Shown piece after piece: positions 22,236-60,116 of a stretch of DNA of 64,000 nucleotides. Source of the stretch: Candidatus Omnitrophota bacterium (lineage in GTDB: Bacteria; Omnitrophota; Omnitrophia; Omnitrophales; Aquincolibacteriaceae); the NCBI GenBank assembly GCA_030698625.1, contig JAUYMS010000028.1, forward strand, positions 3,854 through 67,853, in the 5' to 3' direction. The notes below the pieces were generated by a model. It had not been told where the DNA came from. It did no database searches and saw nothing but the letters and a program-made list of their open reading frames with translations. Position 1 is the stretch's first letter. Every line of letters begins with the position of its first letter. The translations under genes and the position numbers were made by a program.

Positions 22236-23385
22236 AAGCCTACTGCCTTACGGCAAGCAGTGGATTGACAAAGACGACGTTCGGGGCGTGGTGCGCACGC
22301 TGCAATCCGATTTCATCACGCAGGGCCCGCGTATTGAGGAGTTCGAAAGACGGATCGCTGATTTTTGCGGGGCTCGATACGCGGTGGCATATTCGAGCGG
22401 TACTGCCGCGCTTCACGCCGCTTCTTATGCGATTGACCTTGGTCAGGGCGACGAGGCGATCACGTCGCCGATCAGCTTTATTGGGACTGCTAATGCCATC
22501 GTTTTCCAGCGTGCGCGTCCGGTTTTTGCCGATATCGAGCTCGACACGGTCAATCTTGATCCGAGTGAGGTCGAGAAAAGGATCACTTCACGCACGAAGG
22601 CCATTTTTGCCGTTGATTTCGCGGGCCATCCGGCCCCGCTCAGAGAACTCAAGCGTATCGCGAAAGCAAAAGGGCTCTATGTTGTCGAAGACGCGGCGCA
22701 TGCGCTAGGTGCGAAATATCACGGGCGTCGCGTTGGGGCATTGAGTGACATCTCCATTTTTAGCTTTCATCCGGTCAAGCATATCACGACAGGCGAAGGA
22801 GGCATGGCGCTGACAAACAACGCGAAATTGTGCCGCCGCCTGAGGTTGTTCAGAAATCACGGCATGGTTCGAAGCGATGAGCTTTCCGAAAAGCACGGGC
22901 CGTGGTACTACGCCATGGAAGACCTTGGGTACAACTACCGGGTGAGTGACATTCAATGTGCTTTGGGATTATCACAGTTCCGAAAAGTGGAGCGCTTTTT
23001 GAGATTACGCAGAAAATTGGCGGCTTCTTATCTTAAAAAGTTGAAGGGTGTGAGCGGGATCATCTTGCCGAAAGAGAAGATGGGGATTGAATCCTCCTAC
23101 CATCTCTTCGTGATTCAACTGAAGACGGCGCTTAAAGCACAGAGGCGTATTCTGTTTGAGGAGATGCGCCGTCGCGGCATCGGTGTGAACGTCCACTATA
23201 TTCCGATACACCTTCAACCCTATTATATTAAAAACTTTGCTTATAAAGCGGGAGACTATCCGAACGCCGAACTGTATTACTCTCGGGCATTGACATTGCC
23301 TTTGTTCCCCGCCATGCGTGAACGGGACGTAGACCAGGTCGTTCAGGTGCTTGTGAAAAGCCTGGCCGGGCTAAGGAGCGCCTAG
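22228..23385 (+). CDS. pseC: DegT/DnrJ/EryC1 PLP aminotransferase, UDP-4-keto-6-deoxy sugar transaminase
   Basis: DegT-family architecture with a conserved Lys region. Positioned directly after pseB. Confidence 0.8.
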   Translation: MAKSLLPYGKQWIDKDDVRGVVRTLQSDFITQGPRIEEFERRIADFCGARYAVAYSSGTAALHAASYAIDLGQGDEAITSPISFIGTANAIVFQRARPVFADIELDTVNLDPSEVEKRITSRTKAIFAVDFAGHPAPLRELKRIAKAKGLYVVEDAAHALGAKYHGRRVGALSDISIFSFHPVKHITTGEGGMALTNNAKLCRRLRLFRNHGMVRSDELSEKHGPWYYAMEDLGYNYRVSDIQCALGLSQFRKVERFLRLRRKLAASYLKKLKGVSGIILPKEKMGIESSYHLFVIQLKTALKAQRRILFEEMRRRGIGVNVHYIPIHLQPYYIKNFAYKAGDYPNAELYYSRALTLPLFPAMRERDVDQVVQVLVKSLAGLRSA

Positions 23386-24872
23386 TGATGGGCGCAATAC
23401 TTTTACGTGCAGACGGTAACGCTCATATTGGGGTGGGGCACCTTATGCGGTGCCGCGCATTAGCGGAAGCCGCGAGCGTGCAGGGGATTCGCGCCTCGAT
23501 CGCGTCCGCTGACGATAGGACGGATGTTCCTGTTCTTCGTGTGAATGCGGCAAGCGGCACGGACAAGGACGCCAAGGCGACGATCGGTCTCGCGCGGCAG
23601 TGCGAATCATCGTGGATTGTCGTTGACGGTTATCAGTTTGGGGCCGGCTACCAGCGCGCTCTTAAAGATGCGGGGCTTTCGGTTCTCGTAATGGATGACG
23701 GAGGGCATTCGGAACATTATTCCGCGGACGTTATCGTGAATGCGAATGTGCATGCACACGATGACTTTTATCGCAGCCGTGAGCCTTACACGAAATTGTT
23801 GCTTGGCACGCGTTACGTTTTTATGCGGCAGGAGTTTCTAGAGTTCCGGAGGCAACGTAAGGCGCGTGGCAGTGTGAAGCGCGTCCTTGTGACGCTAGGC
23901 GGGGGCGACGCACCCAATGCCACGCTCGCTGTGCTGTTGGCGCTTAGCAAAATCACGAAGATGGACTTCGAAGTTGTTGTCGCGATCGGGCCCGAGAATC
24001 CTCATCGCGAGAGTTTGGAAGCCTTTGCTGCCGAAAGTGCTTTGGACGTGAAGCTTGAATCGGGCTTGAATCAAATGGCGCGTTTAATGGCTGAGTCAGA
24101 CATCGCTATCGCGGGTGCCGGATCAACGAGTTGGGAATTGGCATACATGGGCGTACCGCAATTGGCGGTGGTGATAGCGGAGAATCAACGTCCTGTTGCC
24201 GAGGAGCTGGAACGTCTTGGGGTTGTCATGAGGCTCGGGGATACTAGGGATCTCAAGGGCGAGGCTACCGCAAAAAAAATCGCCGAAGTATTCGGAGACG
24301 ATGGGATCCGGGAGCAGATGCGCCTTCGAGGGACGGCGCTTGTCGACGGATTAGGGGTAAGGCGGGTGCTGGCTGAAATGGGGCTCGGGGAGTTTTCGTT
24401 GAGACGAGCGCGTCCCGATGACTGCGAACATCTCTATGAGTGGAATAATCAGGCGGATGTGCGGGCCGTCTCATTTTCGACGGATCCTATTCCTTACGAG
24501 AGTCACCGGAAATGGTTTGCTGCAAAATTGAGTGATCCGGCATGTCGGATCTATATTGCCTTGGATCGCCAGGGTGCGCGAATGGGCCAGGTTCGTTATG
24601 AAATCAGCGGAAATGAAGCCGAAGTCGCCATCGTGGTGGATTCGCGTTATCGAGGCAAGCAGTACGGGGCTCTCATGATAGAACGTGCCACCCAAATTGT
24701 CAGAGCGGAGGGCGCAATCGAAATCGTTCACGCTTATATAAGGGGTGATAATGAAAAATCGAGCGGTGCTTTCCGTGCCGCCGGGTTCGTCGACGCGGGA
24801 AAGGTGAGTATTAAAGGCTGTGAGGCGGCGCACTATCTATATGAAAAGCAAAATATTACCGCAGGCATCTAA
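23385..24872 (+). CDS. Fusion of PseG-like UDP-sugar hydrolase (N-terminal) and GNAT N-acetyltransferase PseH-like (C-terminal)
   Basis: N-terminal 'ILLRADGNAHIGVGHLMRCRALAEA' is the PseG signature. The C-terminal ~170 aa is a GNAT fold 'EWNNQADVRAVSF...RYRGKQYG'. Confidence 0.7.
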   Translation: MMGAILLRADGNAHIGVGHLMRCRALAEAASVQGIRASIASADDRTDVPVLRVNAASGTDKDAKATIGLARQCESSWIVVDGYQFGAGYQRALKDAGLSVLVMDDGGHSEHYSADVIVNANVHAHDDFYRSREPYTKLLLGTRYVFMRQEFLEFRRQRKARGSVKRVLVTLGGGDAPNATLAVLLALSKITKMDFEVVVAIGPENPHRESLEAFAAESALDVKLESGLNQMARLMAESDIAIAGAGSTSWELAYMGVPQLAVVIAENQRPVAEELERLGVVMRLGDTRDLKGEATAKKIAEVFGDDGIREQMRLRGTALVDGLGVRRVLAEMGLGEFSLRRARPDDCEHLYEWNNQADVRAVSFSTDPIPYESHRKWFAAKLSDPACRIYIALDRQGARMGQVRYEISGNEAEVAIVVDSRYRGKQYGALMIERATQIVRAEGAIEIVHAYIRGDNEKSSGAFRAAGFVDAGKVSIKGCEAAHYLYEKQNITAGI

Positions 24873-25914
24873 GATCCATATAGGCGGACGACGGATAGGT
24901 CCGGGGGAACCCGTCTATATTGTGGCCGAGATGTCTGCGAACCATCATCAAGATTATGAGGAGGCCGTAAACATTCTGCGTGCGGCTAAAGACGCCGGAG
25001 CGGATGCCGTGAAAATCCAGACTTATACGGCTGATACGATTACCCTCCGTTCGGACAAAGATTTTTTTCGCCTTAGCGGCGGGACTCTTTGGGATGGGCG
25101 TCAGCTTCACGACCTTTATCGCGAGGCCTATACTCCGTGGGAGTGGCAGCCCAGACTTAAAGCCATCGCGGAGGAGATCGGCCTGGATCTTTTTTCGGCG
25201 GCATTTGATCCGACCGCTGTCGAATTTTTGGAAAATATGGGCGTGCCTGTACACAAGGTTGCATCCTTTGAAATTGTAGATATCCCGCTCATTCGGTGCA
25301 TGGCTCGAACAGGAAAGCCTCTAATTATTTCAACAGGCATGGCCTCCCGTGAAGAAATTGGGGAGGCCGTGGAGGCTGCCCGCCAAAGCGGTGCTGTGGA
25401 AATCGCCATTTTGAAATGCACCAGCGCTTATCCGGCCCCGCCAGCAGAAATGAATCTTTTGGCCATTCCCGATTTGGCAGCTGCCTTTGAGGTGCCTGTA
25501 GGGCTTTCCGATCACACCCTCGGGATTACCGTCCCGGTGGCAGGCGTAACTTTGGGAGCGTGCATTGTTGAAAAGCATCTGACGATGACACGCTCAAAGC
25601 CGGGGCCGGATTCCGCCTTTTCTCTAGAACCTCATGAATTTAAATACATGGTAGATGCAATTCGGACCGCCGAAAAGTCGCTAGGGCGGGCGGACGCTTT
25701 GCCGAGTGAGCGTGAGCTTCCGATGCGCTCGCTCAGGCGCTCTCTCTTTGTGGTTGCCGATGTAAAGGCCGGAGATTTGATTACCGAAAGGAATGTTCGT
25801 TCCATTCGGCCTGGGTATGGACTTCACACGCGCCACATGGGCGAGGTGATCGGCAGACGAGCCGTGCGCGATCTTGAAAAAGGGACTCCGTTGGCATGGG
25901 AGATGCTGACATGA
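24841..25914 (+). CDS. pseI: Pseudaminic acid synthase, NeuB family with C-terminal SAF domain
   Basis: 'IGGRRIGPGEPVYIVAEMSANHHQD' NeuB N-terminus. Start moved to ATG 24841. Confidence 0.85.
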   Translation: MKSKILPQASKIHIGGRRIGPGEPVYIVAEMSANHHQDYEEAVNILRAAKDAGADAVKIQTYTADTITLRSDKDFFRLSGGTLWDGRQLHDLYREAYTPWEWQPRLKAIAEEIGLDLFSAAFDPTAVEFLENMGVPVHKVASFEIVDIPLIRCMARTGKPLIISTGMASREEIGEAVEAARQSGAVEIAILKCTSAYPAPPAEMNLLAIPDLAAAFEVPVGLSDHTLGITVPVAGVTLGACIVEKHLTMTRSKPGPDSAFSLEPHEFKYMVDAIRTAEKSLGRADALPSERELPMRSLRRSLFVVADVKAGDLITERNVRSIRPGYGLHTRHMGEVIGRRAVRDLEKGTPLAWEMLT

Positions 25915-26477
25915 GCATCCTAAGCGAAACTCAGAATAAATTGCGCGGCAAAAAGTTCAATCTGCGCCCGCTAGTCGTCGCAGACGTTTCGGACGCATAT
26001 ATAGGCTGGCTCAATGACCCGGTTGTGAATCAGTTTCTTGAAGCAAGATTTTCAAAACAGAGCACCGAAACGGCGCGTGCCTATGTTGCGGGTTATTACG
26101 AGGGTGGCGAGAAATATATTTGGGGAATTTATCCTCAAGGATCTAAAGACTTCATCGGAACGGCGACGCTTAGTGAGATTCGACCGGAGCACGGATGGGG
26201 AGAAATCGGACTGCTGATCGGAGATAAGCTTTTTTGGGGCAAAAATGCTTCAACGGAGGCGCTGGATTTAGTCGTCAAGTTCGGTTTTCAGGTCTTGAAG
26301 CTCCGGCGGCTCACCGGGGGCAGTTACGCACCAAATCTTGGTATGAACTTTACTTTTAAGCGTTGCGGTTTCCGCTGCGAGGCGAAATTGGTTCGGGCCT
26401 ATCGGCTAGGCGAGAATCAGTACGTCGACGGTTACCGTTGGGGCTTGTTGGCAGAGGAATGGAGGGAACGCAAGTGA
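25911..26477 (+). CDS. GNAT-family N-acyltransferase (RimL-like)
   Basis: GNAT fold motifs. ATGA overlap with pseI. Confidence 0.7.
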   Translation: MSILSETQNKLRGKKFNLRPLVVADVSDAYIGWLNDPVVNQFLEARFSKQSTETARAYVAGYYEGGEKYIWGIYPQGSKDFIGTATLSEIRPEHGWGEIGLLIGDKLFWGKNASTEALDLVVKFGFQVLKLRRLTGGSYAPNLGMNFTFKRCGFRCEAKLVRAYRLGENQYVDGYRWGLLAEEWRERK

Positions 26478-28270
26478 ACGCCATATTCGATGCCCTCAAG
26501 CCGACGCCTGCGTCCTATCTAAAAGCAGAACGGGAGATTTCGACGGGAAAGGAGGGCTCGCTCAGGCATGTGCGCGTTGCCGTGCTTGGGACTTTCACGA
26601 CAAACTATTTGAAGCCTTATCTTACTGTAGAGGGCGCGCGCCGCGGATTGTCGATTGATGCCTATTTCGGTCCGTTTAACCAAATGGAGCAGGAAACCCT
26701 TGATGAATCGAGTGCGCTCTATCAGTTCGACCCCGACGTTGTGATTGTTGCCTCGCGCCTGGAAGAAATGACGCCCGATCTGGTAAACCGGTTCTTGAAG
26801 TTAAGCGCAGAGGAAATCGATGCTCTCGGTGAGCGTTCTCTGGAGCGCTTACGGGCGCTTCTGCAGGCTGTGCGGCAGAAGACGGCCGCCACAGTTCTTC
26901 TATTTAACTTTGCGCCGCCGTCGCTGCTCAACGCGGGTCTGGCAGATGCGGGAATGGTAGATTCGCAGACCGCTGTGATTTCGCGGCTCAACGGGAGCTT
27001 GGCGCGAGTGGCCGGAAGTCTGAGCGGGGTTTTTGTTTTTGATTTGGCTCGCGTCATTACCGAGGTCGGGATTCGGAGGGCATTTGATGCCAAGCTCTGG
27101 CATATGGCACGACTCCCGTTTAGCGTGGATGCCCAGATTGCGATCGGGGAGCGTTTGGCTCGTACAATTCGTGCTGCGGTTTTGCCGCCGTGTAAATGTC
27201 TCGCCGTCGATCTGGATAATACGCTATGGGGCGGTGTGGTTGGGGAGGACGGCCTCGGAGGGATTGCGCTCGGAGATGAATGCCCGGGCAATGCTTATAA
27301 GGATTTCCAGCGCGAATTGCTTTCTCTGCGCGATCGCGGCGTGTTGTTGGCTATTGCGAGCAAGAATAACGAGGACGACGCGCTGGCCGTATTCGACAAA
27401 CACCCGGACTGTCTTTTAAAGCGAGAGCATTTTGCTGCAACGCAGATTCACTGGGGGGATAAGGCGGAAAGTTTGCTTGCGATTGCTCAGGAACTCAATT
27501 TGGGGCTCGACTCGGTGGCGTTCCTCGATGACAGCCCTGCAGAAAGGGAGTGGGTGCGCATGAAAATGCCGGAAGTCCTGGTCTTGGATTTTCCGGCAGG
27601 ACCGCCGACTTTTCGAACGATCGAGGAGTCGGGTGCCTTTGACCAACTTGTCATATCCGGAGAGGATCGAGAGAGGACGATTTTTTACCAGCGCGAGAGT
27701 GAAAGGTCGAAGCTGCAAACCCAAAGTGTTTCATTAGAAGAATTCCTGGGGGACCTCGATATTACGGTATCCATCGGTCAAGTGGATAACGATACGCTGC
27801 CTCGCGTCGCTCAGCTCGTAGGAAAGACAAATCAATTCAATCTGACCACGCGGCGGCATACCGAAGGGGCCATTTCAGACATGCTTAGCCGGGGTTGCAT
27901 CGCGCTTTGGATGCGCGTTAAGGACCGCTTCGGTGACTACGGACTGGTGGGGGTTGCGTTGGCGATGCCGTTAACAGCAAAGCGTTGGGAAATTGATACG
28001 TTTCTACTCAGCTGCCGCATGATCGGACGCCGCGCCGAAGATGCGCTTCTGGCTGTTCTGATCAGGCAGATTAGCGCCCGGGGAGGGGAAGTGGTTGAGG
28101 GGGTGTATATCCCCACAGCCAAGAATGCGCAGGTTAAAGCCTTTTTCCCCGCACGCGGCTTTCGGGTATGTGGGACGGAAACCGACCGCTGGGAGTGGGA
28201 TCTTTCTCAGGGGAGCTATCTCGCGCCGGATCTTTTGAAAGTGAGATTTGATGATGAGTCCGATGACTGA
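26459..28270 (+). CDS. FkbH-like HAD-superfamily (IIIC) domain protein
   Basis: 'CLAVDLDNTLWGGVVGEDG' HAD motif I typical of FkbH. About 600 aa with a C-terminal GNAT-like domain. Confidence 0.75.
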   Translation: MEGTQVNAIFDALKPTPASYLKAEREISTGKEGSLRHVRVAVLGTFTTNYLKPYLTVEGARRGLSIDAYFGPFNQMEQETLDESSALYQFDPDVVIVASRLEEMTPDLVNRFLKLSAEEIDALGERSLERLRALLQAVRQKTAATVLLFNFAPPSLLNAGLADAGMVDSQTAVISRLNGSLARVAGSLSGVFVFDLARVITEVGIRRAFDAKLWHMARLPFSVDAQIAIGERLARTIRAAVLPPCKCLAVDLDNTLWGGVVGEDGLGGIALGDECPGNAYKDFQRELLSLRDRGVLLAIASKNNEDDALAVFDKHPDCLLKREHFAATQIHWGDKAESLLAIAQELNLGLDSVAFLDDSPAEREWVRMKMPEVLVLDFPAGPPTFRTIEESGAFDQLVISGEDRERTIFYQRESERSKLQTQSVSLEEFLGDLDITVSIGQVDNDTLPRVAQLVGKTNQFNLTTRRHTEGAISDMLSRGCIALWMRVKDRFGDYGLVGVALAMPLTAKRWEIDTFLLSCRMIGRRAEDALLAVLIRQISARGGEVVEGVYIPTAKNAQVKAFFPARGFRVCGTETDRWEWDLSQGSYLAPDLLKVRFDDESDD

Positions 28271-28505
28271 AGACAGGCTTTGCCGGGTCCTTGCCGAAGT
28301 ATTCGGTGTGCCGGCGGAACAGATTAACGAAGACAGCAGCCCGGATACCATCGAGAATTGGGATTCCGCATCGCATATCAATATGATCTTGTCTCTTGAA
28401 TCGGAGTTCGATGTGAAGCTGACCCCCGAGCATGCCATGGAGATGTTGTCGGTAAAGCTCATTCGGATGATTTTGGAAGAGCTCGGGGTTAAAGATTTCA
28501 AATGA
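28248..28505 (+). CDS. Acyl carrier protein
   Basis: 85 aa. 'ENWDSASHINMILSLE' phosphopantetheine-attachment Ser context. Confidence 0.7.
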   Translation: MMMSPMTEDRLCRVLAEVFGVPAEQINEDSSPDTIENWDSASHINMILSLESEFDVKLTPEHAMEMLSVKLIRMILEELGVKDFK

Positions 28506-29683
28506 AGACAGCCGTCCGGTCACAATATGAAGTAGGCCAGGTATTTCGGACCAGCATCGATGTGGACCAGAAACTGGTCGAACGGTTTGCCGATTTTTCC
28601 GGCGACCGTAATCCGCTTCATATGGACGCAGGCGAAGCTCAGTCTTACGGGTATGCGCGCAGGGTTGCGCACGGGGGAATCCTCATCGCCTTTTTATCAA
28701 AACTGATCGGTATGGAAATCCCCGGACCGGGAGCGGTGTGGATGAACCAGCAGGTGGATTGGACAAGTCCGGTGTTTGTCGGAGATGTCGTGGAATTGGC
28801 TGTGACCGTCGAGAAAATATCGACCGGCGCGGGAATGCTTACGCTGGATGTCACGGCGGCAAATCAGAAAGGGAAGACGGTTATGAAAGGGAAAGCGAAT
28901 GTTAAGGTTGCGGAAAAGATCGAGCAGAAAAGTGCTCAAAAAAAAAGCGTGAAGACGGCCCTCGTAACGGGTAGCGGCCGCGGTATCGGCGCAGAGATAG
29001 CTCGCAAACTGGCGGCAAGCGGGGTGAAGGTTATCGTCAATTGTCGCAAGTCGGTTCACGAGGCTGAGGGGGTTCAGCAGGAGATCAGGGCCTTGGGCGG
29101 CACAGCGGAAGTGATGCAGGCAGATCTCTCGGACTATGCGCAGACGGAAGCGATGATCGATAGCATTATTAAGCAATTCGGTAGTTTGGATATTGTGGTG
29201 CATGGCGCGTCGCCTATGGTCACTCCGGCGATGGCCGATCAAGTGACGCAGGAGCGGCTCGATCATTTTTTTAGGGCTTATGTCGGAGGGGCCAGGAGTC
29301 TTGTCGCAAAGGCGGCGCCTGCGATGGCGGAGAGAAAATTTGGGCGCTTCATTTTCTTGGGAACGTCGTTCATGTTTGGAATCCCTCCGGCAGGCATGAG
29401 TGCTTACGTTACCGCAAAGGAAGCCTTGTGGGGATATGTGAAGTGTCTGGCCGCAGATCTCGGGCCGTCGGGCATTACATCCAATATGGTCTCTCCGAGC
29501 ATGACGGTCACTGATTTTACCGCCGATATTCCGGCTCGCATGAAAGAGCTCGAGGCACGGAAGAGTCCGATGCGACGCATGGCTTCCGTGGCAGATACCG
29601 CAGCAGCCGTGGTTTTCTTGGCGGGCGAGGATGCGTCTTATATTAACGGCAGCAATCTGCCGGTCACCGGAGGGCCCATTTGA
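28502..29683 (+). CDS. MaoC-like hot-dog dehydratase fused to FabG-like SDR reductase
   Basis: N-terminal hot-dog region 'GDRNPLHMD...'. C-terminal 'ALVTGSGRGIGAEIARKLAASG' SDR. Confidence 0.75.
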   Translation: MKTAVRSQYEVGQVFRTSIDVDQKLVERFADFSGDRNPLHMDAGEAQSYGYARRVAHGGILIAFLSKLIGMEIPGPGAVWMNQQVDWTSPVFVGDVVELAVTVEKISTGAGMLTLDVTAANQKGKTVMKGKANVKVAEKIEQKSAQKKSVKTALVTGSGRGIGAEIARKLAASGVKVIVNCRKSVHEAEGVQQEIRALGGTAEVMQADLSDYAQTEAMIDSIIKQFGSLDIVVHGASPMVTPAMADQVTQERLDHFFRAYVGGARSLVAKAAPAMAERKFGRFIFLGTSFMFGIPPAGMSAYVTAKEALWGYVKCLAADLGPSGITSNMVSPSMTVTDFTADIPARMKELEARKSPMRRMASVADTAAAVVFLAGEDASYINGSNLPVTGGPI

Positions 29684-30681
29684 GCCAAGCTATCGAGCAA
29701 ACCAGGGTACTGGTAAGCGGTTGCGGATCGATCGGTAAGCGGCATATCGCAAACTTGCAAGCGCTGGGGCTCTCCGCGATTACGGCAGTAGACCCGGATA
29801 AGAGCGCTTGCATGGAGGCCGAGCGAAAACTTGGCGTCCGGATAGCGGTCTCTTTTGAGGAAGCTCTTCGGGAGCGGCCCGACATTGTTGTCGTGGCCAG
29901 CCCCAATCACGTGCACATGGAACAGGCATTGCAAGCGGCGAAGGTTGGCGCGGACCTTTTCATCGAGAAACCTCTATCTCATGAAATGACCGGTGTCAAC
30001 GAGCTCTTGACTTACGTGGAGCAGAACCGGCTTGTGGGTATGGTGGGTTGCAATATGCGTTTTCATCCGGCGATCTCGAAGATAAAAGAGGTCCTGTCCG
30101 AGCAAAAACTAGGCAAGGTCTATTCCGTTCAAGCCGAGTTTGGCTTTTATTTGCCATGGTGGAGGCCGGGCAAGGACTACCGTGAAAATTACGGCGCCAG
30201 AAAAAGGACGGGCGGAGGTGTGATTCTTGATGCCATCCATGAAATCGATGCCTTGTGGTGGTTTTTTGGCCCCGTTCGCCAGGCAATGACGTTGTCGCAG
30301 AAGCAAAGTGATCTCGAAATTGAAACTGAGGACGTGGCGGAAATCTCGCTCAGGTTTGCAAACGGTGTGCTGGGGCATATTCACCTGGACTATCTTAACC
30401 GCCATTATGCACGTAACCTTAAAATTATCGGCAAGCAGGGGACGCTCGAGTGGGACTGGAACCAGGAATTCATACGGATCTTTCGCGAAGGGGACAGCCC
30501 GGCCGAGGAGTATGCGGTGCCCGCTCGTGAGAACCCGAACGAAATGTATCGTGATGAAATGCGCCATTTTCTCAGCTGCGTGGCAGAAAGAAAAACTACG
30601 ATTTGTCCGATTGAGGATGCGGCTGAAGTTCTGAGCGTGGCGATGTCGGCAAAAAGATCTTCAGAGATGGTACCGCAATGA
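29680..30681 (+). CDS. Gfo/Idh/MocA-family oxidoreductase
   Basis: 'VLVSGCGSIGKRHI' Rossmann fold and 'EKPL' motif. Confidence 0.75.
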   Translation: MSQAIEQTRVLVSGCGSIGKRHIANLQALGLSAITAVDPDKSACMEAERKLGVRIAVSFEEALRERPDIVVVASPNHVHMEQALQAAKVGADLFIEKPLSHEMTGVNELLTYVEQNRLVGMVGCNMRFHPAISKIKEVLSEQKLGKVYSVQAEFGFYLPWWRPGKDYRENYGARKRTGGGVILDAIHEIDALWWFFGPVRQAMTLSQKQSDLEIETEDVAEISLRFANGVLGHIHLDYLNRHYARNLKIIGKQGTLEWDWNQEFIRIFREGDSPAEEYAVPARENPNEMYRDEMRHFLSCVAERKTTICPIEDAAEVLSVAMSAKRSSEMVPQ

Positions 30682-31523
30682 AAAAGAGTATTTTTGTCCA
30701 GGCCCGGATGGGATCAAGCCGATTGCCCGGAAAGGTGATGGCGGATCTCTTCGGGCGCCCGCTTCTCGAGCGTCTGGTGGAGCGGCTGCGGCGATCGACG
30801 AGCGCAGATCAAGTGGTGGTGCTTACTAGCAGTGCGGAAGCGGATCAAGCGATTGAGGACTTGGCATATGCAATGGACGTTCCCGTTTTCCGGGGCGACG
30901 AAGATGATGTGTTAGACCGTTATTTTCAAGCGGCAAAGAAGTTTCAGCCGGATGCCATTATCCGCGTCACAGGGGATTGCCCTCTGATTGACCCAAGAGT
31001 CATTGACCAGGTTGCGTCTTTTTTTGAAACGGAAGACCGGGATTATGTGAGCAATATCCTTATCCCGACTTTTCCCGACGGGTTGGATGTGGAGATTTTT
31101 AGGATTGAGGCGCTCGAGAGCTGCTGGCGTAACGCGCGGGAAAAGTACCAGCGCGAGCATGTGACGTCGTACTTCTACGAAAACCCGGACCTCTTTCGTC
31201 TGGCTAATTTCCGGTCCCCTGTCGATCGTTCCGCTATGCGCTGGCTAGTCGACGAGGCTCCGGATCTCGTGTTTGTGCGAAAAGTGTATGAGCGTCTTTA
31301 TCCGGATAACGCAACATTTTTATACGCCGACATTCTTGCCCTTTTGGACCGCGAGCCGGAATTACAGACATTGAATGCGCACCTGCGCAGGAACGAAGGA
31401 TTTTTTAAGAGTAAAGACGGAGCGTCGGCCCATGCGGCGGAAGATGCGCGTTCCGGCTGGGCGCGCTATATCCAAGAAATTATGCAGAAAAAGGGATGTG
31501 AGCTATATGAATCTGTCGGTTGA
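30678..31523 (+). CDS. pseF: CMP-nonulosonic acid cytidylyltransferase (acylneuraminate cytidylyltransferase / SpsF family)
   Basis: 'VQARMGSSRLPGKVMADLFGRPLL' N-terminal signature. Confidence 0.75.
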   Translation: MKKSIFVQARMGSSRLPGKVMADLFGRPLLERLVERLRRSTSADQVVVLTSSAEADQAIEDLAYAMDVPVFRGDEDDVLDRYFQAAKKFQPDAIIRVTGDCPLIDPRVIDQVASFFETEDRDYVSNILIPTFPDGLDVEIFRIEALESCWRNAREKYQREHVTSYFYENPDLFRLANFRSPVDRSAMRWLVDEAPDLVFVRKVYERLYPDNATFLYADILALLDREPELQTLNAHLRRNEGFFKSKDGASAHAAEDARSGWARYIQEIMQKKGCELYESVG

Positions 31524-32799
31524 CGGGTTGAAGGAATCGGTTGCGTTGTGGAAAAAGGCCGCGGACTTGATCCCCGCAGGAACCCAAACGCTCAGTAAGG
31601 CGCCCAATCAATTTGTTGAAGGGGTTTACCCGAAATTCATCGAGCGGGGTAAGGGAAGCCATGTCTGGGATGTTGACGGTAACGAGTATATCGATTACCC
31701 GTTATCACTAGGCGCTGTTTTACTGGGTCACTGCTACCCGGTGGTGGATAAGGCGATTACAGACCAGCTGAAGAAGGGGATCGTTTTTTCGTTGATGCAC
31801 CGGTTGGAAGGTGAAGTCGCCGAGCGGGTTCGCGCGCTGGTTCCTTGTGCCGAGCAGGTGCGGTTTTCAAAGACAGGCTCGGAGGTGACTACGGCGGCCG
31901 TGCGTGTTGCGCGTGCGGCGACGGGCCGTAAGAAGATTGCCTACTGCGGGTATCACGGATGGCATGATTGGTATGCCGTGACCACCACACGTTCCAAGGG
32001 GATTCTTCCCGAACTTTCGGAGTACATGCTCCCTTTTACCTATAACGACATTACGACACTGGAAAGGATTTTTCAGGAGAACCCCGATGAGATTGCGGCG
32101 ATCATCATGGAGCCGGTTGGGCTTGAGGCCCCGAAAGGGGATTTTCTTAACAGTGTCCAGAAATTGACGAAACAACACGGCAGTCTGCTTATCTTTGACG
32201 AAATGATCACGGGTTTCCGCATGGCGAGGGGCGGGGCCCAAGAATATTATGGAATAACCGCGGACCTGGCGACCTTCGGGAAGTCGGTTGCCAACGGAAT
32301 GCCGCTCAGTATCTTGGCGGGTAGGAAGCAATTCATGAAAGAATGCGAAGAGATCTTTTTTTCCACAACATTCGGAGGCGAGGCATTATCTCTGGCGGCT
32401 GCGCGTGCGGTCTTGGATGAGATCGTTGAAAAGCCAGTGGTGGCTCATCTGTGGACTCAGGGGAGGAAATTAAAAGACGGTTTTGCACAACTTGCGGCGG
32501 AAACCGGAGTGCAAGCCGCGTTTTCAGGGTTTCCGGTTCGGCAGTTTCAGGTATTTAGGGATGCTGAGGGCGAAATCTCTACAATTCATAAAGCTCTGTT
32601 CTGGCAGGAAACGATCAAGCGTGGTGTGCTTTTCGGAAACGCTCAAATGATTTCATATTCGCATTCTGACGAAGACATCAAACGCACTCTGGAAGTGTGC
32701 GGAGAAGCCCTGCATGTTGTAGGGTGCGCCGAAAGAGAAGGCCGTTTGGAAACGGCTATGGAAGGAAAACTTCCTACAGAGATATTCAGAAAGCCCTGA
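31507..32799 (+). CDS. Class III PLP aminotransferase (glutamate-1-semialdehyde aminomutase-like)
   Basis: The signature region of glutamate-1-semialdehyde aminomutase-type class III PLP aminotransferases ('YCGYHGWHDWY'). Internal ATG 31507 chosen as start. Confidence 0.7.
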   Translation: MNLSVDGLKESVALWKKAADLIPAGTQTLSKAPNQFVEGVYPKFIERGKGSHVWDVDGNEYIDYPLSLGAVLLGHCYPVVDKAITDQLKKGIVFSLMHRLEGEVAERVRALVPCAEQVRFSKTGSEVTTAAVRVARAATGRKKIAYCGYHGWHDWYAVTTTRSKGILPELSEYMLPFTYNDITTLERIFQENPDEIAAIIMEPVGLEAPKGDFLNSVQKLTKQHGSLLIFDEMITGFRMARGGAQEYYGITADLATFGKSVANGMPLSILAGRKQFMKECEEIFFSTTFGGEALSLAAARAVLDEIVEKPVVAHLWTQGRKLKDGFAQLAAETGVQAAFSGFPVRQFQVFRDAEGEISTIHKALFWQETIKRGVLFGNAQMISYSHSDEDIKRTLEVCGEALHVVGCAEREGRLETAMEGKLPTEIFRKP

Positions 32800-32806
32800 G
32801 GAATTC

Positions 32807-33418
32807 ATGATAGCGATTATTGATTATGAAATGGGAAATTTAAAGTCGGTGGCAAATGCCTTTAAGGCCGTGGGTGTTGAGCCCTGCATTACACGTGATC
32901 CGTCTGAGCTTTCAGCGGCGGATCGGATTGTTTTGCCGGGGGTTGGCGCATTCGGCAACGGAATGGAGCGGCTTCGACGATTGGGTTTTGTCAGGGCCTT
33001 GGAGGAAAACGTCCGAGAGAAAAAGAAACCCTTCTTGGGTATTTGCCTTGGGATGCAGCTTCTGGCAACCAAAGGTTTTGAGTTCGGAGAGCATGCAGGG
33101 CTGGGCTGGATTGAGGGAGAGGTCCGCAGACTCGAATCCCCGGACTTGCCCGTGCCGCATGTCGGATGGAATGACGTGGCTGTCACACAGTCGTCGCCGC
33201 TGCTCGAGGGGATAGGCGATAAAGCCGACTTCTATTTTGTTCACAGTTATCATTTCGAAGCAGCGCAACCCGATAGCGTTACAGCCACTTGTGAGTACGG
33301 TCAACGCTTCGCAGCGAGCGTGAGCCATGGGAATATCTTTGGGGTCCAGTTTCATCCCGAGAAGAGTCAGAAGGCCGGTAAACATTTGCTCGAAAACTTC
33401 CTGAGGATCAGCGCGTGA
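32807..33418 (+). CDS. HisH-like class I glutamine amidotransferase subunit
   Basis: 'MIAIIDYEMGNLKSV' plus the Cys-His-Glu triad context. Sits in a sugar locus, not a his operon. Confidence 0.8.
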   Translation: MIAIIDYEMGNLKSVANAFKAVGVEPCITRDPSELSAADRIVLPGVGAFGNGMERLRRLGFVRALEENVREKKKPFLGICLGMQLLATKGFEFGEHAGLGWIEGEVRRLESPDLPVPHVGWNDVAVTQSSPLLEGIGDKADFYFVHSYHFEAAQPDSVTATCEYGQRFAASVSHGNIFGVQFHPEKSQKAGKHLLENFLRISA

Positions 33419-34236
33419 AGAAAAACCGTTTAATCCCTGTACTCCTTTTGAAGAACGGCTGGCTGGTACAGAGCAAATCATTCCAGCGTTATCAGAATCT
33501 AGGCGACCCGATTACATCTGTTCGGCGCCTGAGTAATTGGGCGTCAGACGAGCTCATCTTTTTGGATATGACGCGAGAGGGAGGCTATGACATGCGTCGG
33601 GATGACAAAGGCCACCCGAATCGGCATGATATCCTGGAGATTATCGAAGACGTTTCTAAGGAATGCCTAATGCCGATTGCAATCGGCGGGCGCATTAGAA
33701 CGCTTACGGATATTATGGTAAGGCTGGCGTCGGGCGCCGACAAGGTTTGCGTTAATACGAAACCGTTGGAGGACCCCGCGTTTATTACCGAAGCCGCGAG
33801 GGAATATGGGTCCCAATGCATTATCATTTCGATCGACGCGAAGGTTTCGGGCGAGGGGCGGTGGGAGGTCTATAAGGACGGCGGCAAGGTCGCGACAGGA
33901 CGGGACCCGGAGTCTTGGGCACGTGAAGTGGAATCGCGCGGTGCCGGCGAAATTCTGATCAATTGTATTGACCGCGACGGTGCGCGTACCGGCTACGATC
34001 TGGATCTCGTAGGCCGCGTCAGTGATGCCGTGAGTATTCCGGTGATTGCCATGGGCGGCGTTGGGGAGTGGGAGCATTTTGCCGAAGCGCTGAGCCGCAC
34101 AAAGGCGGATGCGGTCGCGGCTGCGAACATCTTTCATTACTATGATCAGAGCGTCTATTTGGCAAAGAAGTACCTGCACGACCGGAACTTCAACGTGCGC
34201 GCTCCGGACCTCATACCCGTTGAAGTGACAACGTGA
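33415..34236 (+). CDS. HisF-like cyclase/synthase subunit
   Basis: 'LIPVLLLKNGWLVQSKSF' (beta/alpha)8 HisF-like N-terminus. Confidence 0.8.
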   Translation: MKKNRLIPVLLLKNGWLVQSKSFQRYQNLGDPITSVRRLSNWASDELIFLDMTREGGYDMRRDDKGHPNRHDILEIIEDVSKECLMPIAIGGRIRTLTDIMVRLASGADKVCVNTKPLEDPAFITEAAREYGSQCIIISIDAKVSGEGRWEVYKDGGKVATGRDPESWAREVESRGAGEILINCIDRDGARTGYDLDLVGRVSDAVSIPVIAMGGVGEWEHFAEALSRTKADAVAAANIFHYYDQSVYLAKKYLHDRNFNVRAPDLIPVEVTT

Positions 34237-35273
34237 CTTCGATAACAGATCCCAAGCCTAACGATGCATGCGCCCCGCTCCGGGAGTCCGCTATTCGCGC
34301 TCCGGAACTCAGGCCGGAGGCACTCGAGTGCCAGGAAAGAGACCGTCAGTTCCTGCTTGCACAGCAGCACCGCTTTGCCGAAGTCGCTTGCCCTGCTTGT
34401 GAAAGTGACAAAAAGACGATCAAGTTTATTAAGGCCGATTTTCATTATTGCAGCTGCTCTGACTGTGCGACCGTGTATATCAGCCCGAGGCCGAGCGCTG
34501 AGCTCTTGGAAGAGTTTTATTCAATTTCAGAGAATTACATTTATTGGAATAAATATATTTTTCCCGACTCCGAGAAGGTCAGACGCGAGCAGATCTTCAT
34601 ACCGCGCGTCAATCGGATTCTGGACATTTGCCGTAAATACAGCGTCGGAAGGGAAGCTATTATGGAAGTGGGGGCGGGCTTTGGCATCTTCTGCGAAGAG
34701 ATGATAAAAAAGAGACAGTTTGAGCGGGTCATCGCCGTCGAGCCTACAGCAGATCTTGCGGCGACATGCCGGTCCAGAGGTCTCGATGTGTTGAATCTGC
34801 CGGTCGAGAAGGTTCAACTTCCAGAGCGCTCACTGGACGTCGTGGTGAGCTTCGAAGTGATCGAGCATCTTTTTTCACCGCGCGACTTCGTAAGGGCTGC
34901 GGCCCGGTTTCTGAAGCCGAAGGGTTTGTTTATTCTTACTTGTCCTAATATTATGGGGTTTGAAACACAAGTCGCGGGCCCTGCGACATGCACCTTTCAC
35001 TACGAACATTTGAATTATTTTCATCCCGGCTCAGTTTCCCGGCTTCTGGCGGATGTCGGGTTCAAGATTCACGAGATCCTGACGCCCGGCGAATTGGATG
35101 TGCAGGTCGTGAAACGTGTTTTTGATTCGGGCGATATCACACTCGAGGATAACCGGTTCTTCCGGATGCTCCTCAGCTCAGGCCGGGATGAAACGCTTAA
35201 CGCATTTCAGCGTTTCCTAGCCGAGAACGGTCTTTCGTCTCATATGTGGATAGTGGCTTCGCGTAATAATTAA
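34233..35273 (+). CDS. Zn-ribbon class I SAM methyltransferase (paralog 3 of 3)
   Basis: 'CPACESD...CSDCATVYISPRP' and 'MEVGAGFGIF'. C-terminal 'GLSSHMWIVASR'. Confidence 0.8.
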   Translation: MTSITDPKPNDACAPLRESAIRAPELRPEALECQERDRQFLLAQQHRFAEVACPACESDKKTIKFIKADFHYCSCSDCATVYISPRPSAELLEEFYSISENYIYWNKYIFPDSEKVRREQIFIPRVNRILDICRKYSVGREAIMEVGAGFGIFCEEMIKKRQFERVIAVEPTADLAATCRSRGLDVLNLPVEKVQLPERSLDVVVSFEVIEHLFSPRDFVRAAARFLKPKGLFILTCPNIMGFETQVAGPATCTFHYEHLNYFHPGSVSRLLADVGFKIHEILTPGELDVQVVKRVFDSGDITLEDNRFFRMLLSSGRDETLNAFQRFLAENGLSSHMWIVASRNN

Positions 35274-35282
35274 GGAGATTCC

Positions 35283-38347: not shown

Positions 38348-38349
38348 TC

Positions 38350-43368: not shown

Positions 43369-43459
43369 GGTGATAACTGTAACGGCAGATGATACTTGAT
43401 TCGATCGGGAACCTCAAGAACATGTGGTCAAGGTGGGATTTGACTCCTATAATAAAAAG

Positions 43460-50067: not shown

Positions 50068-50075
50068 CGAGCGTC

Positions 50076-52338: not shown

Positions 52339-52339
52339 T

Positions 52340-60106: not shown

Positions 60107-60116
60107 GCCGAGGAAA

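What the first reader, a model, noticed from the sequence alone, without database searches (positions are those of the whole stretch)
26459..30681. FkbH/ACP/dehydratase-reductase/oxidoreductase cassette inserted between pseI and pseF
FkbH-like enzymes load a glyceryl unit from 1,3-bisphosphoglycerate onto a dedicated ACP, as in methoxymalonyl-ACP biosynthesis. Finding FkbH with an ACP, a hot-dog/SDR fusion and a Gfo/Idh/MocA oxidoreductase inside a Pse operon points to a glycerate-derived acyl substituent on the nonulosonic acid. With the methyltransferase paralogs this could be glyceroyl or O-methylglyceroyl, built on an ACP. As far as I know the ACP-based route to such sugar N-acyl groups is not characterised.
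Basis: inference. Interest (0 to 1): 0.8.

Follow-up and report, generated by a model that had tools for sequence, protein, structure and literature searches.

The report
Lactyl/glyceroyl-ACP cassette in pseudaminic acid operon
Inside a pseudaminic-acid sugar operon of an uncultured Omnitrophota bacterium sits a small enzyme set that probably builds a three-carbon acyl group (most likely lactyl) from a glycolysis intermediate on its own carrier protein and attaches it to the sugar. This route is biochemically known in polyketide synthesis, but I found no characterisation of it for sugars.

Summary
They are an FkbH-like protein (TIGR01686 288 bits against a cutoff of 147, with the HAD Asp motifs and the C-terminal Cys intact), an 84-aa ACP, a MaoC-dehydratase/SDR fusion and a Gfo/Idh/MocA oxidoreductase. 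They lie in one tightly packed operon with pseB, pseC, pseG and pseI.

I make three corrections.
1. The GNAT gene just upstream (25896-26477) belongs to the cassette. It is the likely acyl transferase.
2. The Gfo/Idh/MocA gene does not belong to it. It forms a unit with the cytidylyltransferase and a class-III aminotransferase. These are fused pairwise in related loci, and its closest solved relatives are sugar-nucleotide 3-dehydrogenases.
3. MaoC-SDR plus FkbH plus ACP is the domain set of a trans-AT polyketide loading module. Such DH-KR proteins are reported to convert glyceryl-ACP to lactyl-ACP. The predicted substituent is therefore lactyl rather than glyceroyl or O-methylglyceroyl.

The FkbH-ACP pair is very common in glycan loci of bacteria and archaea. 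The MaoC-SDR version is enriched next to NeuB/PseI genes. N-lactyl Pse is known chemically, but I found no biochemical study of its route. I class this as a new variant of a known kind, of moderate interest.

The parts
21249..22235 (+). pseB, UDP-GlcNAc 4,6-dehydratase (inverting)
   Evidence: TIGR03589 521 bits, cutoff 407.75; Polysacc_synt_2 6e-101
22228..23385 (+). pseC, aminotransferase making the UDP-4-amino-4,6-dideoxy sugar
   Evidence: TIGR03588 466.9 bits, cutoff 423.5
23385..24872 (+). pseG (UDP-sugar hydrolase) fused to a C-terminal GNAT domain (first GNAT, PseH-like position)
   Evidence: TIGR03590 PseG 209 bits, cutoff 153.55. The GNAT domain covers residues 339-469 and scores only 21 bits against PseH (cutoff 93.1). 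This GNAT is 40% identical to the N-terminal half of the double-GNAT protein of L081.
24820..25914 (+). pseI, pseudaminic acid synthase (the true start is probably some codons downstream of 24820)
   Evidence: TIGR03586 456 bits, cutoff 340.25; the alignment starts at residue 32
25896..26477 (+). Stand-alone GNAT (Acetyltransf_3). Proposed acyl-ACP-dependent N-acyltransferase of the cassette.
   Evidence: Pfam 2.6e-19. Its stop overlaps the FkbH start. Homologues lie directly upstream of FkbH in L001, L003, L081, L088, L100, L169 and L170 at 39-58% identity.
26474..28270 (+). FkbH-like glyceryl-ACP synthase/phosphatase, with three regions: FkbH_N, HAD-IIIC, and a C-terminal Cys domain
   Evidence: TIGR01686 288 bits (cutoff 146.65). 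The DxD, KN, DD and Cys514 positions are invariant in alignment A1. It is 34% identical over 556 residues to the FkbH domain of a PKS loading module. PDB 3slr matches at 1e-49.
28251..28505 (+). Dedicated acyl carrier protein
   Evidence: PP-binding 26.4 bits with the 'WDS' serine. tblastn finds an ACP next to FkbH in 68 of 80 genome loci, and ORF clustering puts it directly after FkbH in 49.
28502..29683 (+). MaoC hot-dog dehydratase (residues 12-129) fused to a FabG-like SDR ketoreductase (151-391). Proposed glyceryl-ACP to pyruvoyl-ACP to lactyl-ACP converter.
   Evidence: Pfam. It has the hydratase-2 motif SGDRNPLH with D35/H40, plus TGSGRGIG and YVTAK. It aligns collinearly with the MaoC-SDR head of a PKS loading module. 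14 of 16 independently retrieved fusions lie next to FkbH.
29680..30681 (+). Gfo/Idh/MocA oxidoreductase. It belongs with the next two genes, not with the acyl-ACP cassette.
   Evidence: Best PDB relatives are 3q2i and 3q2k at about 1e-19. It is fused to CTP_transf_3 in L169/L170 and is adjacent to the CTP_transf_3-aminotransferase fusion in L081. It was found in only 6 of 80 FkbH loci and never adjacent to FkbH.
30678..31523 (+). CTP_transf_3 cytidylyltransferase. Presumed CMP-Pse synthetase, but not of the canonical PseF family.
   Evidence: Pfam 3.4e-37. PseF TIGR03584 scores only 25 bits (cutoff 205.7). PDB 6oew matches at 2.5e-40.
31507..32799 (+). Class-III (glutamate-1-semialdehyde aminomutase-like) aminotransferase
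   Evidence: Aminotran_3 1e-51. NF004856 scores 398 bits, below its 486 cutoff. ATG at 31507. It is fused to CTP_transf_3 in L081.
32807..36425 (+). Acetamidino module: HisH-like (32807-33418), WbuZ/HisF-like (33415-34236), SAM methyltransferase (34233-35273) and WbuX amidotransferase (35283-36425)
   Evidence: TIGR01855 256 bits, TIGR03572 262 bits, TIGR03573 314 bits (cutoff 203). The module is absent from the otherwise collinear L169/L170.

Best explanation
The functional unit is GNAT + FkbH + ACP + MaoC-SDR (25896-29683). It sits inside a pseudaminic acid operon of a Candidatus Omnitrophota genome.

The proposed steps are all inferred from homology. None has been shown for this protein set.
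1. FkbH takes 1,3-bisphosphoglycerate, removes the 3-phosphate with its HAD domain, carries the glyceryl unit on its conserved Cys, and passes it to the phosphopantetheine arm of the adjacent ACP.
2. The MaoC hot-dog domain eliminates the 3-hydroxyl. This gives enol-pyruvoyl/pyruvoyl-ACP.
3. The fused SDR domain reduces the 2-keto group to give lactyl-ACP (2-hydroxypropanoyl-ACP).
4. The GNAT encoded immediately upstream transfers the acyl group from the ACP to an amino group of the Pse pathway. The acceptor is either the 4-amino group of the UDP-4-amino-4,6-dideoxy sugar, which becomes N7 of Pse, or an amine made later.

The product would be an N-lactyl pseudaminic acid. The HisH/HisF/WbuX module further converts one N-acetyl to acetamidino.

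The Gfo/Idh/MocA enzyme is not part of this route. Together with the cytidylyltransferase and the class-III aminotransferase, it most likely oxidises and transaminates the (CMP-)sugar.
For: FkbH membership and active-site residues.

ACP adjacency: tblastn finds an ACP next to FkbH in 68 of 80 genome loci, and ORF clustering places it directly after FkbH in 49.

Linkage of the fusion to FkbH, in both directions:
- 16 of 85 FkbH-centred loci carry a full-length MaoC-SDR fusion.
- When I searched with the fusion itself, 14 of the 16 metagenome loci whose match spans both domains had FkbH adjacent.

Catalytic residues of both domains are present: D35/H40, the TGxxxGxG motif, and YxxxK.

A Streptomyces trans-AT PKS starts with MaoC(9-99)-SDR(288-472)-FkbH-PP-binding-KS. 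The window fusion aligns collinearly with that head (27-28% identity; E 6e-8 and 1e-10). The window FkbH aligns with that module's FkbH domain (34% identity, E 1e-85).

Literature:
- DH-KR bifunctional proteins convert glyceryl-S-ACP into lactyl-S-ACP in FR901464 and lankacidin biosynthesis (PMC4765723, citing He et al. 2014).
- An FkbH loading module is tabulated as giving D-lactate-ACP (PMC7901079).
- N-lactyl on Pse exists in nature but is rare (PMC9912281, section 4.6).

Link to Pse:
- Overlapping start and stop codons within the pse operon.
- The same gene set in L169, L170, L081, L088 and L001.
- A NeuB/PseI-family synthase lies within 10 kb in 7 of 16 loci with the fusion, against 1 of 69 without it (Fisher p = 1.7e-5).

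The GNAT type is directly upstream of FkbH in seven loci.
Against: - No enzyme of this set has been assayed. All the chemistry is by analogy.
- Identity to the PKS-head DH-KR is low (27-28%), and that particular PKS is itself uncharacterised.
- The window fusion did not retrieve known lankacidin or FR901464 proteins specifically.
- The SDR could work in the oxidative direction.
- In three acidobacterial homologues the SDR catalytic Tyr is Phe, so the reductase step is not universal.
- There are two GNATs, and neither matches PseH models or solved PseH structures. The acceptor amine and the donor specificity of each GNAT are therefore open.
- The window encodes other amino-sugar pathways (DegT genes at 52223-54615) that could in principle receive the acyl group.
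Confidence: 0.5

Rival explanations
1. The ACP-bound unit stays a glyceroyl group, possibly O-methylated by one of the methyltransferases, and ends up as N-glyceroyl or N-(O-methylglyceroyl) Pse. This would match Tannerella forsythia Pse5Am7Gra or Campylobacter jejuni 11168 Pse carrying 2,3-di-O-methylglyceroyl.
For: - FkbH and ACP are confirmed.
- Glyceroyl-type Pse derivatives exist (PMC5378307, PMC3068675).
- The C. jejuni flagellin glycosylation locus contains an FkbH-domain gene, cj1302 (PMC7099621).
- SAM methyltransferases are present in the window.
- The window also has the acetamidino module, as expected for a Pse5Am-type product.
Against: - This reading leaves the tightly linked MaoC-SDR fusion without a role.
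- The fusion is specific to FkbH contexts. It matches the DH-KR head of FkbH loading modules, which are reported to deoxygenate glyceryl-ACP to lactyl-ACP (PMC4765723).
- The nearest methyltransferase lies between HisF and WbuX, inside the amidino module. It is missing from the collinear L169/L170 together with that module.
- No Cj1295-like DUF4910 gene is in the window, although one accompanies FkbH in seven other loci.
Confidence: 0.2
2. The cassette makes the same acyl-ACP, but the acyl group is placed on another amino sugar of the polysaccharide encoded by this 64-kb locus. It would not go on the nonulosonic acid.
For: FkbH-ACP(-MaoC-SDR) modules also occur with DegT aminotransferases and LbH, Antibiotic_NAT or other acyltransferases in loci without any NeuB gene. 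Examples are Prosthecobacter dejongeii L168, L082 and L084. The window has further DegT genes.
Against: - The cassette is embedded between pseI and the cytidylyltransferase, with overlapping stop and start codons.
- That embedding is conserved in L169, L170, L081 and L088.
- The specific GNAT type co-occurs only with the Pse/NeuB gene set.
- NeuB association is significant.
Confidence: 0.15
3. The ACP and the MaoC-SDR protein make a fatty-acid-type acyl group such as 3-hydroxybutyryl. The FkbH-like protein would act only as a HAD phosphatase unrelated to acyl loading.
For: (R)-3-hydroxybutyryl is a common N-acyl group of Pse and Leg (general knowledge). The SDR domain is closest to FabG/acetoacetyl-CoA reductases, and MaoC to (R)-hydratases.
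Against: - There is no ketosynthase, thiolase or acyl-ACP ligase in the operon to put a C4 unit on the ACP.
- The C-terminal Cys domain needed for acyl transfer is invariant.
- FkbH-ACP adjacency is nearly universal.
- Loci that extend the chain carry an extra FabH gene, which this window lacks.
Confidence: 0.05

Closest known systems
Lactyl-ACP starter-unit pathway of trans-AT polyketide synthases (FR901464, lankacidin; bryostatin-type FkbH loading modules)
   Same: The domain set and the predicted order of reactions are the same. FkbH loads a glyceryl unit from 1,3-bisphosphoglycerate onto an ACP, and a hot-dog dehydratase plus an SDR reductase in one polypeptide convert it to lactyl-ACP (PMC4765723, PMC7901079). 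A PKS loading module with MaoC-SDR-FkbH-ACP is homologous to the window proteins.
   Different: Here the proteins are free-standing rather than PKS domains. There is no ketosynthase or assembly line. The acyl-ACP is predicted to be consumed by a GNAT that acylates a sugar amine. Identity to the PKS domains is only 27-34%.
Methoxymalonyl-ACP pathway (FkbG/H/I/J/K) and tetronate glycerate-utilisation operon
   Same: [quoted passage not shown]
   Different: No FkbK-type 3-hydroxyacyl-CoA dehydrogenase, FkbI-type acyl-CoA dehydrogenase, FkbG O-methyltransferase or FabH-like tetronate synthase is in the cassette. A dehydratase-reductase is present instead.
Campylobacter jejuni NCTC 11168 flagellin glycosylation locus (Pse with 5-N-(2,3-di-O-methylglyceroyl); cj1295, FkbH-domain gene cj1302)
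   Same: A Pse pathway accompanied by an FkbH-domain gene, with a glycerate-derived N-acyl group on Pse (PMC3068675, PMC7099621).
   Different: The C. jejuni product keeps both oxygens (methylated) and needs the aminopeptidase-like Cj1295. The window has a MaoC-SDR fusion and no Cj1295 homologue. The C. jejuni FkbH route has also not been characterised biochemically in the papers I could search.
Tannerella forsythia Pse5Am7Gra
   Same: A pseudaminic acid with acetamidino at one nitrogen and a C3 hydroxy-acyl group at the other. The window combines a Pse pathway, an acetamidino module and a C3 acyl-ACP module.
   Different: In T. forsythia the gene for the glyceroyl group 'remains elusive' (PMC6120980). 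No FkbH gene is described in its cluster, and the predicted acyl group here is lactyl.
ACP-fed N-acylation of amino sugars predicted in O-antigen loci (for example Flavobacterium psychrophilum wfpC-G)
   Same: A dedicated ACP, tailoring enzymes and an N-acyltransferase encoded in a glycan locus to build a non-acetyl N-acyl group (PMC6519341).
   Different: That system uses ketosynthases and malonyl extension, in the style of type II FAS. It uses a PglD-type (LbH) transferase and has no FkbH.

Membership tests
FkbH family (TIGR01686 / HAD-IIIC, glyceryl-ACP synthase) | Match to the family profile above its curated cutoff | tested here: met
   TIGR01686 288.3 bits vs 146.65; TIGR01681 73 vs 35.75; Pfam FkbH_N 68 bits vs 27
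FkbH family (TIGR01686 / HAD-IIIC, glyceryl-ACP synthase) | HAD phosphatase motifs (DxD nucleophile motif, conserved Lys, DD motif) | tested here: met
   D246/D248 'DLDNTLWGG', K297 N298 and D352 D353 are invariant in 20 homologues. They are also conserved in the PKS-embedded FkbH domain.
FkbH family (TIGR01686 / HAD-IIIC, glyceryl-ACP synthase) | Conserved cysteine in the C-terminal domain that carries the glyceryl intermediate | tested here: met
   C514 in 'LLSCRMIGR' is invariant in A1 and aligned with 'LLSCRVLGR' of the PKS loading module. That this Cys is the acyl carrier rests on my recollection of the OzmB work, not on a tool result.
FkbH family (TIGR01686 / HAD-IIIC, glyceryl-ACP synthase) | Dedicated ACP partner with a phosphopantetheine serine | tested here: met
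   ACP at 28251-28505 with 'WDS'. tblastn finds an ACP next to FkbH in 68 of 80 loci, directly after it in 49 by ORF clustering.
FkbH family (TIGR01686 / HAD-IIIC, glyceryl-ACP synthase) | Loads a glyceryl unit from 1,3-bisphosphoglycerate | not testable with these tools
   Needs an in vitro assay with holo-ACP and mass spectrometry
DH-KR/FkbH/ACP lactyl-ACP pathway (FR901464/lankacidin type) | Dehydratase and ketoreductase in one polypeptide, genetically coupled to FkbH and ACP | tested here: met
   The MaoC (12-129) + SDR (151-391) fusion lies directly after the ACP. 14 of 16 fusions retrieved independently are next to FkbH.
DH-KR/FkbH/ACP lactyl-ACP pathway (FR901464/lankacidin type) | Homology to the DH-KR head of a PKS FkbH loading module | tested here: met
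   The S. anulatus PKS L167 starts MaoC-SDR-FkbH-ACP-KS. The alignment is collinear: 27% (E 6e-8) and 28% (E 1e-10). That PKS is itself uncharacterised.
DH-KR/FkbH/ACP lactyl-ACP pathway (FR901464/lankacidin type) | Part of a polyketide synthase (ketosynthase downstream) | tested here: not met
   No ketosynthase or PKS gene anywhere in the window. It works like the pathway but is not a PKS loading module.
DH-KR/FkbH/ACP lactyl-ACP pathway (FR901464/lankacidin type) | Product is lactyl-ACP | not testable with these tools
   Needs the enzyme assay described under next steps
Methoxymalonyl-ACP pathway (FkbGHIJK) | FkbK-type 3-hydroxyacyl-CoA dehydrogenase, FkbI-type acyl-CoA dehydrogenase and FkbG O-methyltransferase next to FkbH/ACP | tested here: not met
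   The neighbours are GNAT, MaoC-SDR and Gfo/Idh/MocA. There are no 3HCDH or acyl-CoA dehydrogenase domains.
Pseudaminic acid pathway (PseB, C, H, G, I, F) | PseB, PseC, PseG and PseI equivalog models passed | tested here: met
   521 vs 408, 467 vs 424, 209 vs 154 and 456 vs 340 bits
Pseudaminic acid pathway (PseB, C, H, G, I, F) | Canonical PseH N-acetyltransferase and PseF cytidylyltransferase | tested here: not met
   PseH scores 21 bits (cutoff 93) for the PseG-fused GNAT and has no hit for the stand-alone GNAT. PseF scores 25 bits (cutoff 205.7). Neither GNAT hits a solved PseH by sequence. Non-canonical substitutes are present.
C. jejuni-type glyceroyl-Pse locus | Cj1295-like aminopeptidase-domain protein (DUF4910/DUF2172) accompanying FkbH | tested here: not met
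   No homologue in the window (best tblastn E = 0.006-0.3). One is present next to FkbH in L001, L026, L068, L075 and L082-L084.

The most novel reading that the evidence does not exclude
A widespread, biochemically unstudied module (FkbH + ACP, with or without MaoC-SDR, plus an N-acyltransferase) draws a C3 unit directly from glycolysis. It installs lactyl or glyceroyl groups on nonulosonic acids and other amino sugars across many bacterial and archaeal phyla.

In this operon it may work together with a fused-in-relatives trio: a Gfo/Idh/MocA oxidoreductase, a cytidylyltransferase and a class-III aminotransferase. That trio would oxidise and transaminate CMP-Pse to create a third amino group, for example at C8 or C4. 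The FkbH-linked GNAT would then lactylate that amine, while the PseG-fused GNAT performs the ordinary N7 acetylation. The product would be a tri-amino, N-lactyl, N-acetamidino nonulosonic acid not described so far.
Probability: 0.25. Interest if true: 0.7.

Novelty: new variant of a known kind. Interest (0 to 1): 0.55.

Why it matters
Nonulosonic acids such as pseudaminic acid sit at the outermost tips of bacterial surface glycans and flagellins. Their N-acyl groups determine antigenicity, phage recognition and charge.

The genetic basis of C3 hydroxy-acyl groups on these sugars was described as elusive in the papers I could search (PMC5378307, PMC6120980). This covers glyceroyl in Tannerella, di-O-methylglyceroyl in Campylobacter, and the rare N-lactyl Pse.

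This locus and its many relatives give a concrete, testable enzyme set and a simple predictive rule:
- FkbH + ACP alone predicts a glyceroyl-type group.
- FkbH + ACP + MaoC-SDR predicts lactyl.
- An added FabH predicts longer dihydroxy-acyl groups.

If confirmed, the rule would allow glycan N-acyl groups to be read from genomes. It would also supply enzymes for making modified Pse and Leg donors.

Tried and rejected
- An exact look-up of the MaoC-SDR protein in the assembly index found nothing. The source organism came instead from the FkbH search.
- tblastn of the MaoC-SDR fusion against plasmids gave thousands of generic SDR/MaoC pairs and no specific link to known lankacidin or FR901464 genes. 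The useful PKS example came from the FkbH hit H23.
- Sequence searches of both GNATs against solved structures gave only generic GNATs and no PseH. I could not decide which GNAT is PseH-equivalent.
- A search for a Cj1295-like deacylase in the window was negative.
- The 641-aa protein at 36422-38347 has no Pfam or NCBIfam hit. It is not detectably similar to the same-position, weakly Capsule_synth-like protein of L169.
- The promoter and terminator scan of 20.5-40.2 kb was not above shuffled expectation and was not used.
- I rejected the methoxymalonyl-ACP reading because the oxidising enzymes are absent.
- I rejected a role for the Gfo/Idh/MocA enzyme in oxidising glyceryl-ACP, because of the fusion and co-occurrence evidence.
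- Literature searches for FkbH with pseudaminic, flagellin glycosylation or cj1302 returned a single paper that only mentions the gene. FkbH with 'lactyl' returned none.

Full report
**What is in the sequence**

The window is a 64-kb, almost entirely + strand glycan biosynthesis region. It comes from a Candidatus Omnitrophota metagenome-assembled genome: the FkbH protein is 100% identical to an NCBI record on a 132-kb contig.

From 20963 to 39882 the genes are packed, many with 4-nt stop/start overlaps. In order they are:
- HTH_17
- pseB (21249-22235)
- pseC (22228-23385)
- pseG fused to a GNAT (23385-24872)
- pseI (24820-25914)
- a stand-alone GNAT (25896-26477)
- FkbH-like (26474-28270)
- ACP (28251-28505)
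- MaoC-SDR fusion (28502-29683)
- Gfo/Idh/MocA (29680-30681)
- CTP_transf_3 (30678-31523)
- class-III aminotransferase (31507-32799)
- HisH-like, HisF/WbuZ-like, a SAM methyltransferase and WbuX (32807-36425)
- a 641-aa protein without family hits
- a Wzx-type flippase

PseB, PseC, PseG and PseI each exceed their NCBIfam equivalog cutoffs. This is therefore a genuine pseudaminic acid pathway.

There are two caveats. A GNAT gene lies between pseI and the FkbH gene. The 'pseF' is a CTP_transf_3 protein that fails the PseF model (25 bits against a cutoff of 205.7).

**The FkbH protein and its ACP**

The protein passes TIGR01686 (288 bits, cutoff 147) and TIGR01681. It has the FkbH_N domain, whose only solved relative is the uncharacterised BF1531 (3slr, 1e-49).

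In an alignment of 20 homologues at 46-56% identity, several positions are invariant: the HAD DxD motif (D246, D248), K297/N298, D352/D353 and C514 in 'LSCRxIGR'. The window protein has all of them.

The same motifs align with the FkbH domain embedded in a Streptomyces trans-AT PKS loading module (34% identity over 556 residues, E 1e-85).

The ACP has the 'WDS' serine. Across 80 genome loci fetched with the FkbH profile, from many bacterial phyla and several archaeal lineages, tblastn finds an ACP next to FkbH in 68. ORF clustering places it directly after FkbH in 49.

**What travels with FkbH-ACP**

Clustering of the ORFs in the 85 loci shows several recurrent partners:
- AcpS-type phosphopantetheinyl transferases
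- N-acyltransferases of different folds (GNAT, LbH, Antibiotic_NAT)
- FabH, AMP-binding enzymes, methyltransferases and VOC proteins
- sulfotransferases
- Cj1295-like DUF4910 proteins

The FkbH-ACP pair therefore looks like a general acyl-donor module of glycan loci.

A full-length MaoC-SDR fusion like the window's is present in 16 of the 85 loci. The linkage also holds in reverse. I searched metagenomes with an alignment of the fusion itself. Of the 16 loci whose match spans both domains, 14 have FkbH adjacent. The fusion is thus a specific partner of FkbH.

Its catalytic residues are present: the hydratase-2 motif SGDRNPLH with D35/H40, plus TGSGRGIG and YVTAK.

**What the fusion most likely does**

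A Streptomyces anulatus plasmid carries a trans-AT PKS, with PfaD and FabD encoded upstream. Its first module reads MaoC (9-99), SDR (288-472), FkbH, PP-binding (1137-1202), then ketosynthase. The window's fusion aligns collinearly with that head: 27% (E 6e-8) for the hot-dog part and 28% (E 1e-10) for the SDR part.

[quoted passage not shown] Chem. 2014). A pathway-reconstruction table lists the FkbH loading module as giving D-lactate-ACP from 1,3-bisphosphoglycerate (PMC7901079).

By analogy, the free-standing set here would proceed in three steps:
1. It makes glyceryl-ACP.
2. It dehydrates this to pyruvoyl-ACP.
3. It reduces that to lactyl-ACP.

This is inference. It is the only reading that gives every conserved gene a role without needing a ketosynthase, which the operon lacks. 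A review of glycan NMR notes that amide-linked lactyl groups are rare but have been found on Pse (PMC9912281, section 4.6), so the predicted product has a chemical precedent.

**The transferase and the link to Pse**

The stand-alone GNAT overlaps the FkbH start. Its homologues (39-58% identity) sit directly upstream of FkbH in L001, L003, L081, L088, L100, L169 and L170.

In L081 the two GNATs of the window are fused into one protein. The window's PseG-fused GNAT corresponds to the N-terminal half (40% identity), and the stand-alone GNAT to the C-terminal half (52%).

L169 and L170 are collinear with the window from GT2/PMT_2/HTH_17 through pseB to the aminotransferase. They lack the acetamidino module.

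A NeuB/PseI-family synthase lies within 10 kb in 7 of 16 loci with the fusion, but in only 1 of 69 without it (Fisher p = 1.7e-5). Some contigs are short, so these counts are minima. I therefore think the acyl group is destined for the nonulosonic acid.

Which nitrogen receives it is not determined. Neither GNAT matches PseH models or solved PseH structures. No Cj1295-like protein is present. In C. jejuni that protein is required for the Pse form carrying a 5-N-di-O-methylglyceroyl group, and it has been proposed to remove the N5 acetyl (PMC3068675).

**The Gfo/Idh/MocA gene does not belong to the cassette**

- Homologues were found in only 6 of 80 FkbH loci, at 21-30% identity and never adjacent to FkbH.
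- In L169/L170 the orthologue (49%) is fused to the cytidylyltransferase (54%) in one 602-aa protein.
- In L081 the cytidylyltransferase (47%) is fused to the class-III aminotransferase (53%) in a 690-aa protein, with the Gfo/Idh/MocA gene just upstream.
- Its best solved relatives are 3q2i and 3q2k (about 1e-19). From memory, these are WlbA-type UDP-sugar 3-dehydrogenases that work with an aminotransferase.

The three genes therefore look like one unit that oxidises and transaminates a (CMP-)sugar. The aminotransferase occurs only in loci that also have the FkbH-linked GNAT (WIN, L001, L081, L088, L169, L170). This leaves open that the GNAT acylates an amine made by this unit.

**Methyltransferases**

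The closest one (34233-35273) lies between the HisF-like and WbuX genes. It disappears together with them in L169/L170. A preprint describes the analogous ptmG/ptmH pair as making and then methylating the acetimidoyl group (10.64898/2026.04.20.719630). It is more economical to assign this methyltransferase to that module than to O-methylation of glyceroyl.

**Comparison with what is known, and novelty**

The chemistry (FkbH, ACP, DH-KR) is known from polyketide synthases. ACP-fed N-acylation of amino sugars has been predicted from O-antigen loci (PMC6519341).

On the sugar side:
- C. jejuni 11168 has an FkbH-domain gene in its flagellin glycosylation locus and makes a glycerate-derived Pse (PMC7099621, PMC3068675).
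- For T. forsythia Pse5Am7Gra the responsible gene 'remains elusive' (PMC6120980).

My searches of the open literature found no biochemical or genetic characterisation of an FkbH/ACP route to a sugar N-acyl group. The searches are limited to open-access papers, and all ten were used.

The proteins themselves are routinely annotated ('HAD-IIIC family phosphatase', 'SDR family oxidoreductase') and are very common. I therefore rate this as a new variant of a known kind. It is a free-standing version of the PKS lactyl-ACP starter pathway, recruited to decorate pseudaminic acid. Interest is moderate (0.55). The value lies in a testable genotype-to-structure rule rather than in a new mechanism.

**Confidence by step**

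| Step | Confidence |
|---|---|
| FkbH loads a glycerate-derived unit on the ACP | about 0.8 |
| The fusion converts it to lactyl-ACP | about 0.6 |
| The acyl group ends on the Pse residue | about 0.65 |
| Overall statement (C3 acyl, most likely lactyl, built on ACP and transferred by the GNAT to Pse) | 0.5 |

Noticed in passing
window 29680-32799; L169 11179-14260; L081 3907-6875: The Gfo/Idh/MocA, CTP_transf_3 and class-III (GSA-aminomutase-like) aminotransferase genes form a unit whose members are fused pairwise in relatives: GFO-CTPtr in L169/L170 and CTPtr-aminotransferase in L081. This suggests oxidation and transamination of a CMP-activated nonulosonic acid. The function is unknown.
   Followed up: partly
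window 32807-36425: The acetamidino module (HisH-like, WbuZ/HisF-like, WbuX at 314 bits) has a SAM methyltransferase wedged between HisF and WbuX. The whole block is absent from the otherwise collinear L169/L170, so it looks like an insertion into the operon.
   Followed up: partly
window 49099-54615: Pyruvate-dehydrogenase-type E1 alpha (49099-50067) and a transketolase-like E1 beta (51277-52338) flank a DAO-family FAD oxidoreductase (50076-51293). Two DegT aminotransferases follow. This is possibly thiamine-dependent two-carbon branch chemistry on a sugar.
   Followed up: no
window 5101-6405 and 60033-61937: Two B12-binding radical SAM enzymes lie inside the glycan locus. They are possible C-methyltransferases acting on sugars.
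   Followed up: no
window 796-3141, 3239-5092, 19252-20841, 40879-43368 (-): Four large YfhO- or PMT-like membrane proteins (GT-C-type glycosyltransferase candidates) are in one locus. There are also three GDSL-like proteins at 39839-40948 (-), 43424-44683 and 54612-55868.
   Followed up: no
window 20963-21265: A 100-aa HTH_17 (excisionase/MerR-like) gene lies immediately upstream of pseB. It is conserved in the same position in L169 and L170, which suggests an operon regulator.
   Followed up: no
L013 8631-9839, L037 8570-9823, L050 8551-9822: In these acidobacterial NeuB-linked MaoC-SDR homologues the SDR catalytic tyrosine is replaced by phenylalanine (…SFIAAK / …NFLVAK), while the MaoC Asp/His are kept. 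The reductase half may be inactive there, which would predict a pyruvoyl rather than a lactyl product.
   Followed up: no
L085 (Sinorhizobium meliloti megaplasmid CP090105.1 300041-305926): FkbH and ACP lie next to an MBOAT-family protein and a VOC protein. The arrangement is Dlt-like and suggests O-acylation of an extracytoplasmic polymer with a glycerate-derived group. It is conserved in about 40 S. meliloti replicons.
   Followed up: no
L168 (Prosthecobacter dejongeii JACHIF010000010.1, 4887-11176 of the locus): A cultured verrucomicrobium carries DegT, SDR, FkbH, ACP, an LbH acyltransferase and the MaoC-SDR fusion beside LPS genes (kdsA-like and lptA/B-like). It is a convenient organism for testing the predicted N-lactyl amino sugar.
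   Followed up: no
L001, L026, L068, L075, L082, L083, L084: Cj1295-like DUF4910/DUF2172 aminopeptidase-domain genes lie next to FkbH in seven loci. This links the C. jejuni gene required for di-O-methylglyceroyl-Pse to FkbH modules in other phyla.
   Followed up: partly
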